From assembly GCA_965287045.1 (NCBI GenBank), contig OZ336872.1, forward strand, positions 112,530,001 through 112,594,000: a stretch of 64,000 bases of DNA. Direction: 5' to 3'. The notes beneath the pieces were generated by a model. It had not been told where the DNA came from. It saw only the letters and a program-made list of their open reading frames with translations, and searched no databases. A program made the translations under genes and the position numbers. Positions within the stretch are counted from its first letter, which is position 1. The number at the start of each line of letters is the position of its first letter. Shown piece by piece: positions 34,460 to 34,540 of this stretch. This stretch comes from Carcharhinus amblyrhynchos (lineage: Eukaryota).

Positions 34460-34540
34460 ACAATCGCGGCCATCACCGCGTGAATAATCCCTATATGCAT
34501 CACCCATGCTGTGCAATTCTGAAAATTCCTTTGGTGCCAT
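34460..34540 (-). promoter_or_regulatory. Homologue of the Sox2 SRR2 enhancer core
   Basis: Minus strand reads CAGCATGGGTGATGCATATAGGGATTATTCACGCGGTGATG, close to mouse SRR2 as I recall it (CAGCCATTGTGATGCATATGGATTATTCACGTGGTAATG). It lies ~3.75 kb downstream of the TSS, similar to mammals. Confidence 0.75.

What the first reader, a model, noticed from the sequence alone, without database searches (positions are those of the whole stretch)
34460..34540. SRR2 homologue with an intact Oct half-site but no Sox half-site
Seen: the minus strand reads ATGGGTG-ATGCATAT-AGGGATTATTCACG. Known (recalled): mouse SRR2 has CATTGTG-ATGCATAT-GGATTATTCACG, the Oct4-Sox2 composite element of the pluripotency autoregulatory loop. 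The octamer-like site, the GGATTA (Otx-type) site and the flanks are retained here, but the Sox core CATTGT is absent. Inference: the enhancer scaffold predates the cartilaginous/bony fish split, and the Sox-Oct composite arose later through a few substitutions, or was lost in sharks.
Basis: partly seen in the sequence, partly recalled or inferred. Interest (0 to 1): 0.75.

Follow-up and report, generated by a model that had tools for sequence, protein, structure and literature searches.

The report
Shark SRR2 enhancer lacks Sox site
A shark-type genome carries, just downstream of its Sox2 gene, a clear copy of the mouse stem-cell enhancer SRR2 that keeps the Oct site but lacks the neighbouring Sox site; SRR2 had been described as a recent amniote element, so this makes it far older, and it suggests that Sox2's self-activating loop was likely added later by about two base changes.

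Summary
Confirmed. The window holds a chondrichthyan Sox2 gene (310 aa, 309/310 identical to white shark and catshark Sox2). At 3.5 kb from its start codon lies an orthologue of the mouse SRR2 core as printed in two papers: 30 of 33 columns match from the Oct site to the E-box and 49 of 64 over the alignable core (counted by hand), and the shared pattern occurs in 0 of 100 shuffles. The octamer-like ATGCATAT and GGATTA are kept. The Sox half-site reads CATGGGTG where mouse has CATTGTG: one substitution plus a one-base indel. Three other coded organisms have the same letters, but they are close relatives. No ray, chimaera or bony-fish copy was obtained, so gain versus loss is not decided. The firm result is age: a paper calls SRR2 conserved in chicken but not Xenopus or zebrafish and evolutionarily new, and a shark copy dates it to the jawed-vertebrate ancestor. 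Best reading: an old POU/homeodomain/bHLH neural enhancer that gained its Sox site later (about 0.6). A 2010 paper that I recall but could not read likely proposed a few-base origin already, from chick.

The parts
34471..34543 (-). SRR2 orthologue: the stretch that aligns to the 81-bp mouse core
   Evidence: 49 of 64 columns identical over 34532..34471 by hand, plus TGCA at 34543..34540; single copy in the window
34493..34500 (-). Octamer-like POU site ATGCATAT, identical to mouse SRR2
34501..34508 (-). Position of the mouse Sox half-site; reads CATGGGTG instead of CATTGTG. The other strand holds a CACCC core (KLF-type; name recalled)
   Evidence: no other letters listed in coded organisms E, F, H
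34485..34491 (-). GGGATTA (TAATCC on +), K50-homeodomain-type site (Otx/Pitx class, recalled); one G longer than mouse
   Evidence: mouse text; binding untested
34477..34482 (-). CACGCG where mouse has the E-box CACGTG; Myc binds and drives the mammalian SRR2 reporter in breast-cancer lines
   Evidence: binding to the shark variant untested
34521..34532 (-). Second conserved block, 10 of 12 identical to mouse, factor unknown
   Evidence: counted by hand
34539..34546 (+). ATGCAAAA, 7 of 8 to the octamer, at the place of the mouse upstream ATTA-4 site (Brn2/Emx2), whose TAATTAAT is not kept
   Evidence: function inferred only
34409..34549 (.). 141-base run with no difference to coded organism H, which differs at 41 of 1201 letters overall
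   Evidence: p about 0.03, or 0.08 with clustered changes collapsed
37064..37996 (-). Intronless Sox2 coding sequence, 310 aa, the presumed target
40856..40961 (-). N2/SRR1 enhancer orthologue: ATTA-1/2 site 21 of 21 and POU/ATTA-3 site 16 of 17 identical to mouse probe motifs; anchors the locus order

Best explanation
This is the shark orthologue of the Sox2 downstream enhancer SRR2, with the Oct site kept and the Sox half-site absent, and it likely works as a Sox-independent enhancer bound by a POU protein together with homeodomain and bHLH factors, to which the Sox site was likely added later in the line leading to mammals. Shown: orthology by sequence and position; the POU site and GGATTA are intact; there is no Sox core in any cooperative spacing; close relatives have the same letters. 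Inferred: that it is an enhancer at all in sharks; that POU3 (neural) or POU5 (early embryo) proteins bind ATGCATAT without a Sox partner; that an Otx-type and a Myc/Hes-type factor use the two downstream sites; and that the direction of change is gain, by one substitution and a one-base deletion, which would close a Sox2-POU autoregulatory loop on an existing scaffold.
For: Sequence and position. Spacing from the proximal CCAAT box is 3.8 kb here against 4.1 kb from the NF-Y site in mouse; from N2 it is 6.4 against about 7.8 kb (pairing the two CCAAT boxes is my inference). Retention since the shark-mammal split implies selection (inference), and the block is the longest unchanged run against organism H (weak). 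Sox-independent POU control of Sox2 has a precedent in N2 (title of Iwafuchi-Doi 2011 seen in reference lists), and N2's ATTA/POU sites are kept here. [quoted passage not shown] Mammalian SRR2 can be driven by Myc with little Sox2 contribution in breast-cancer lines. Catshark expresses both Pou5 genes in the early embryo, Pou5f3 later in anterior hindbrain and tailbud. For later gain: chicken Sox2 is not expressed before the neural plate, where SOX3 serves instead, and the chicken Fgf4 Sox-Oct enhancer is disrupted and inactive in mouse ES cells. The shark CACGCG to mouse CACGTG difference fits CpG decay in the mammalian line (inference, and a different position). The 2010 PNAS paper by Fernandez-Tresguerres reportedly derives Sox2 and Fgf4 elements from a few base changes (recalled; not held).
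Against: No outgroup sequence: 0 copies from rays, chimaeras, bony fish, amphibians or birds were obtained. The constraint signal is weak: a run this long anywhere in the stretch has p 0.20 to 0.49. Two of the three covering runs are single contigs at depth 2. No binding, chromatin or reporter data exist here. Neural POU3 factors prefer MORE palindromes, and this site matches MORE at only 8 of 12. Coop-seq found that Brn2, Brn4 and Oct6 pair with Sox2 much as Oct4 does, so an ancestral neural Sox-POU composite is chemically possible. The mouse upstream Brn2/Emx2 site is not kept. I could not confirm that the recalled chick result concerns SRR2, or the Sox half rather than the Oct half.
Confidence: 0.6

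Rival explanations
1. The Sox-Oct composite is ancestral to jawed vertebrates and was lost in sharks, or in this group of sharks, leaving the rest of the enhancer working.
For: Chondrichthyan POU5 proteins already support mouse ES-cell self-renewal to some degree. [quoted passage not shown] Only close relatives were sampled. Two mutations can destroy a site as easily as make one.
Against: A site closing a feedback loop is expected to be kept while its neighbours are (inference). Chicken Sox2 is off in the pre-streak epiblast. The recalled chick comparison points to gain in mammals (not verified).
Confidence: 0.17
2. The shark letters are a working site for another factor: the CACCC core beside the octamer binds a KLF/Sp- or Gli/Zic-type zinc-finger protein, so the history is a swap of POU's partner rather than the filling of neutral spacer.
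For: CACCC core at 34501-34505 on +. No change at these letters in E, F or H. It matches 7 of 9 to the Gli consensus and 8 of 9 to the KLF consensus with free positions counted (both consensus recalled, counted by hand).
Against: The whole 141-base block is unchanged, so these letters are not singled out. A 5-base core is common. No weight-matrix score or binding test was done.
Confidence: 0.13
3. SOX2 still acts on the shark enhancer, either pulled onto the degenerate half-site by POU5 or through nearby free Sox cores.
For: ACAAT cores lie at 34460 and 34584, the second a CTATTGT on the minus strand.
Against: 3 ATTGT cores in 401 bases against 1.6 expected from the window rate. Cooperativity depends on the Sox core sitting at set spacings, 0 or 3 bases best, and these cores lie about 30 and 85 bases away. 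The in-register bases lack TTG.
Confidence: 0.07
4. A non-functional relic or a chance likeness.
For: Constraint against organism H is only marginal.
Against: 0 of 100 shuffles hold the pattern; right gene, side, strand and distance; a second block at matching spacing; a related 21-letter pattern hit once in 596 billion prokaryote bases. Neutral DNA would not stay alignable between shark and mouse (established knowledge).
Confidence: 0.03

Closest known systems
Mouse/human Sox2 regulatory region 2 (SRR2, 3' enhancer; Tomioka 2002, not held, known here through citing papers)
   Same: Place about 4 kb downstream of the start site, orientation, octamer-like ATGCATAT, GGATTATTCACG tract, upstream AAGAATTT-type block.
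   Different: Sox half-site replaced; one extra G between the octamer and GGATTA; CACGCG for CACGTG; upstream ATTA-4 site not kept; activity untested.
Canonical Sox/Oct composite motif (FF0, CATTGTC/ATGCTAAT)
   Same: POU half present.
   Different: No Sox half at any spacing that Coop-seq found cooperative; not a member.
Sox2 enhancer N2/SRR1
   Same: Deeply conserved, POU-dependent and SoxB-independent enhancer of the same gene (title seen); present in this window. It is the model for how the shark element may work.
   Different: Upstream, unrelated in sequence, and already known from fish.
Fgf4 Sox-Oct enhancer in chicken and platypus
   Same: Conserved scaffold in which one half of the composite is broken outside placental mammals, inactive in mouse ES cells for chicken.
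   Different: There the Oct half is broken and the Sox half kept; 3-base spacer type; the reported range is amniotes only.
DAX1 promoter ESRRB-SOX2 site in platypus
   Same: Partner site kept and SOX2 site absent in an early-branching lineage.
   Different: Other partner; inserting the mouse Sox site did not restore activity, a caution for the proposed rescue test.

Membership tests
SRR2 orthologues | Lies about 4 kb 3' of the Sox2 start, same strand | tested here: met
   3,496 bases from ATG to octamer; 3.8 kb from the proximal CCAAT box against 4.1 kb in mouse
SRR2 orthologues | Sequence homology with the 81-bp core | tested here: met
   49 of 64 columns by hand against the printed core; shared 24-letter pattern in 0 of 100 shuffles; no whole-core E-value computed
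SRR2 orthologues | Octamer-like ATGCATAT | tested here: met
   34500..34493, minus strand
SRR2 orthologues | Upstream ATTA-4 site bound by Brn2 and Emx2 | tested here: not met
   TAATTAAT absent; only TGCA shared; ATGCAAAA on the other strand
SRR2 orthologues | E-box CACGTG | tested here: inconclusive
   CACGCG variant; recalled as a site for Hes-type and, weakly, Myc-Max proteins; binding untested
SRR2 orthologues | Enhancer activity in ES cells and neural stem cells | not testable with these tools
   needs reporter or chromatin data; contigs cannot show it
Sox/Oct composite elements | Sox core C[AT]TTGT directly 5' of the octamer, or at +3 | tested here: not met
   in-register bases ATGGGTG, 3 of 6 mismatches; no C[AT]TTGT in 34300-34700
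Sox/Oct composite elements | Cooperative SOX2-POU5 binding | not testable with these tools
   needs EMSA or Coop-seq
MORE/PORE POU homodimer sites | Palindrome ATGCATATGCAT or a one-base-spaced variant | tested here: not met
   8 of 12 match by hand against the motif; second half-site absent
Transposon or structured-RNA element | Repeated copy or Rfam match | tested here: not met
   only the self-hit in the window for 33900-35100; 0 Rfam matches in the window; the rest of the genome was not searchable

The most novel reading that the evidence does not exclude
SRR2 is a jawed-vertebrate neural enhancer, and the shark copy is a living ancestral state of it: POU, homeodomain and bHLH sites with a zinc-finger or neutral slot beside the octamer. 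One substitution and one single-base deletion in that slot created the Sox2-Oct4 feedback input in the mammalian line, so making those two changes in the shark fragment would switch on ES-cell activity, and chimaera, gar, coelacanth and lungfish copies would date the step.
Probability: 0.3. Interest if true: 0.7.

Novelty: new variant of a known kind. Interest (0 to 1): 0.5.

Why it matters
SRR2 is the textbook site of Sox2 autoregulation by Oct4-Sox2, and its origin has been used to argue that Sox2 entered the pluripotency network through newly evolved regulatory elements (PMC5007870; PMC3024949 traces it only to platypus). A shark copy shows that the scaffold is as old as jawed vertebrates and was lost or eroded in frog and zebrafish. 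It also gives a natural, two-step-distant variant with which to test whether the feedback loop arose by adding one half-site to an old neural enhancer. Limits: old elements kept in sharks and lost in teleosts are a familiar pattern (recalled); the few-base idea is likely in print from chick (recalled); and SRR2 is not the dominant ES-cell enhancer.

Tried and rejected
Outgroup sequence: the own-genome search failed because no genome is held. The first metagenome scan gave 0 hits. A looser scan gave 11 hits, and 0 of 11 extend beyond the pattern by more than a few bases or show the octamer in place, so all are chance. Viral contigs gave 0. Prokaryote genomes gave 1 hit, in a rumen bacterium, chance. 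Sequencing runs: 17 of 21 listed rows hold the 141-base stretch, and 10 are flagged as possible sources of this DNA and are not counted as support. I laid 4 of the 21: three covered the site, and the raw-read run X18 laid nothing, which is no test. Papers not held: Fernandez-Tresguerres 2010, Tomioka 2002, Kamachi 2009, Canon 2011. A composite elsewhere in the window taking over: 18 matches at up to 2 mismatches against 12.9 expected, none perfect. MORE reading rejected (8 of 12). Rfam gave 0. A CpG-island signal at the element was rejected: CpG ratio 0.77 in the block, like the whole 32-37 kb flank at 0.43 to 0.97. Earlier scan notes: nothing shown. Read without bearing on SRR2's age: PMC3203875, PMC8019947, PMC8700150, PMC10602899. 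No supplements were opened; figure alignments are not held and may show chick or other SRR2 copies.

Full report
Locus. The window has one long non-repeat ORF, 37996..37064 on the minus strand, with HMG-box and SOXp domains. Its 12-member cluster is all chondrichthyan where a species is named. It is 309/310 identical to the Carcharodon/Cetorhinus and Scyliorhinus proteins, 307-308/310 to two batoids and 292/308 to Callorhinchus. So this is an elasmobranch Sox2 locus, most likely a shark's.

Observation. The minus strand at 34511..34471 reads CAGCATGGGTGATGCATATAGGGATTATTCACGCGGTGATG. Two papers print the mouse SRR2 core (passages read in PMC5438634 and PMC3413107). Against it I count by hand 30 of 33 identical columns from GTG to the end of the E-box flank, 6 of 9 across the Sox half-site, 3 of 10 in a linker and 10 of 12 in an upstream block: 49 of 64 in all. 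The shared 24-letter pattern occurs once in the window and in 0 of 100 shuffles. The octamer starts 3,496 bases from the ATG, 3.8 kb from the proximal CCAAT box and 6.4 kb from N2; the mouse coordinates in PMC3024949 give 4.1 kb and about 7.8 kb. The stretch is single-copy in the window and there is no Rfam match. Orthology is therefore secure. The Sox half-site is absent: mouse CATTGTG faces CATGGGTG, the in-register seven bases miss 3 of 6 defined positions including the TTG core, and no C[AT]TTGT lies within 34300-34700. The shortest path between the two states is one substitution and one single-base indel.

Relatives. Of 21 runs listed, 17 hold 34420-34560; 10 are flagged as possible sources and are left out. 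The other holders are four coded organisms from four studies. I laid 4 of the 21 runs. Organisms E and F each have one depth-2 contig over the site, and organism H has a 5.7-kb contig over the whole stretch; none shows another letter between 34409 and the end of its cover (34539, 34534, 34549). Run X18 laid nothing. H differs at 41 of 1201 letters plus four indels, and the longest unchanged run, 141 bases, covers the site. By simulation p is 0.03 for a run that long over this site, 0.08 with clustered changes collapsed, and 0.20 to 0.49 for such a run anywhere. The Sox-less state is thus not an assembly error and is shared by relatives, but these are close (about 3% apart) and the evidence for constraint is weak. 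No ray, chimaera or bony-vertebrate copy was found in the metagenome, viral or prokaryote collections, and no genome is held for the window.

What is in print. [quoted passage not shown] PMC3024949 (passages) traces the region to platypus only and proposes that neural control of Sox2 is as old as or older than its pluripotency control. Ten full-text searches (listings seen, 15 papers read as passages) showed no report of SRR2 in a cartilaginous fish. The library lacks most subscription papers and all figures, and genome-browser alignments may already show it. I recall that Fernandez-Tresguerres et al. 2010 concluded from chick that Sox2 and Fgf4 pluripotency elements arose by a few nucleotide changes. 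The paper is not held. A preprint confirms the Fgf4 part and says that chicken Sox2 is not expressed before the neural plate (10.1101/377010, passages); the Sox2 part stays recalled.

How it likely works. Kept between shark and mouse are the POU site, the GGATTA tract, an E-box-like site (CACGCG against CACGTG) and an upstream block; lost or never present are the Sox half-site and the upstream Brn2/Emx2 site. The simplest reading is a Sox2 enhancer driven by a POU protein without a Sox partner. N2 is described as POU-dependent and SoxB-independent (title only). Oct6 binding is unaffected by Sox2 in neural stem cells (PMC4576985, abstract and passages). Myc drives the mammalian SRR2 reporter with little role for Sox2 in some cancer lines. 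Catshark expresses both Pou5 genes early and Pou5f3 later in hindbrain and tailbud (PMC9492771, passages). Against this, the same POU3 study finds a preference for MORE palindromes, which this site is not, and Coop-seq shows that POU3 proteins can pair with Sox2 as Oct4 does (PMC5314778, abstract and passages), so an ancestral neural composite is possible. Free Sox cores at 34460 and 34584 are too far for the cooperative spacings and hardly above the window rate. All binding and activity statements for the shark element are inferred.

Direction. Later gain rests on three indirect points: chicken Sox2 is off in the early epiblast and the parallel Fgf4 element is broken outside placentals; the E-box difference fits CpG decay on the mammalian side (inference, at another position); and the recalled chick result. 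Loss in sharks remains open because shark POU5 proteins already support mouse ES cells to some degree and no outgroup was read. I give 0.6 to a Sox-independent enhancer with later gain, 0.17 to loss in sharks, 0.13 to a partner swap at the CACCC core, 0.07 to SOX2 acting anyway and 0.03 to relic or chance.

Membership and verdict. It is an SRR2 orthologue by place and sequence; it is not a Sox/Oct composite element, since the defining half-site was tested and is missing. It is a new variant of a known enhancer. The solid and apparently unreported point is the age of the scaffold, which moves from amniotes to the jawed-vertebrate ancestor. The few-base origin of the composite is plausible, testable and likely anticipated in chick. 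SRR2's modest weight in vivo (10.1101/2023.11.09.566464 and PMC13307697, passages) limits the stakes. Interest 0.5.

Noticed in passing
window 38343-38350 (-): A perfect octamer ATGCAAAT lies in the Sox2 proximal promoter between two CCAAT boxes (38483 and 38300), preceded by CTCTATT, 2 mismatches from a Sox half-site. It is a possible second POU input; not compared with other species.
   Followed up: no
window about 40650-40985 (-): The N2/SRR1 enhancer is very well kept, including the ATTA-1/2 and POU/ATTA-3 sites, plus an octamer at 40661 on +.
   Followed up: partly
window 55306-55320 (+) and 25828-25842 (-): The two closest matches to a Sox-Oct composite in the window, one mismatch each; matches of this kind are not above chance overall (18 against 12.9 at up to 2 mismatches).
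   Followed up: partly
whole window: ATGCATAT occurs 9 times against 3.7 expected, reached by 1 of 100 shuffles; a single uncorrected test, but it could reflect POU-site richness of the Sox2 domain.
   Followed up: no
window 34477-34482 (-): CACGCG here against CACGTG in mouse is a CpG-type difference, so the canonical mammalian E-box may itself be derived (inference).
   Followed up: no
window 42-428 (-), 1051-1443 (+), 8881-9309 (+): Short ORFs that look like LINE retroelement fragments; the first hits Pfam RVT_1, the other two hit no family (their likeness to LINE C-termini is recalled).
   Followed up: partly
window 32000-37000: The CpG observed/expected ratio is 0.6 or more in 18 of 20 bins across the AT-rich flank downstream of Sox2, against 0.51 for the window, which may mark a broad low-methylation domain.
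   Followed up: no
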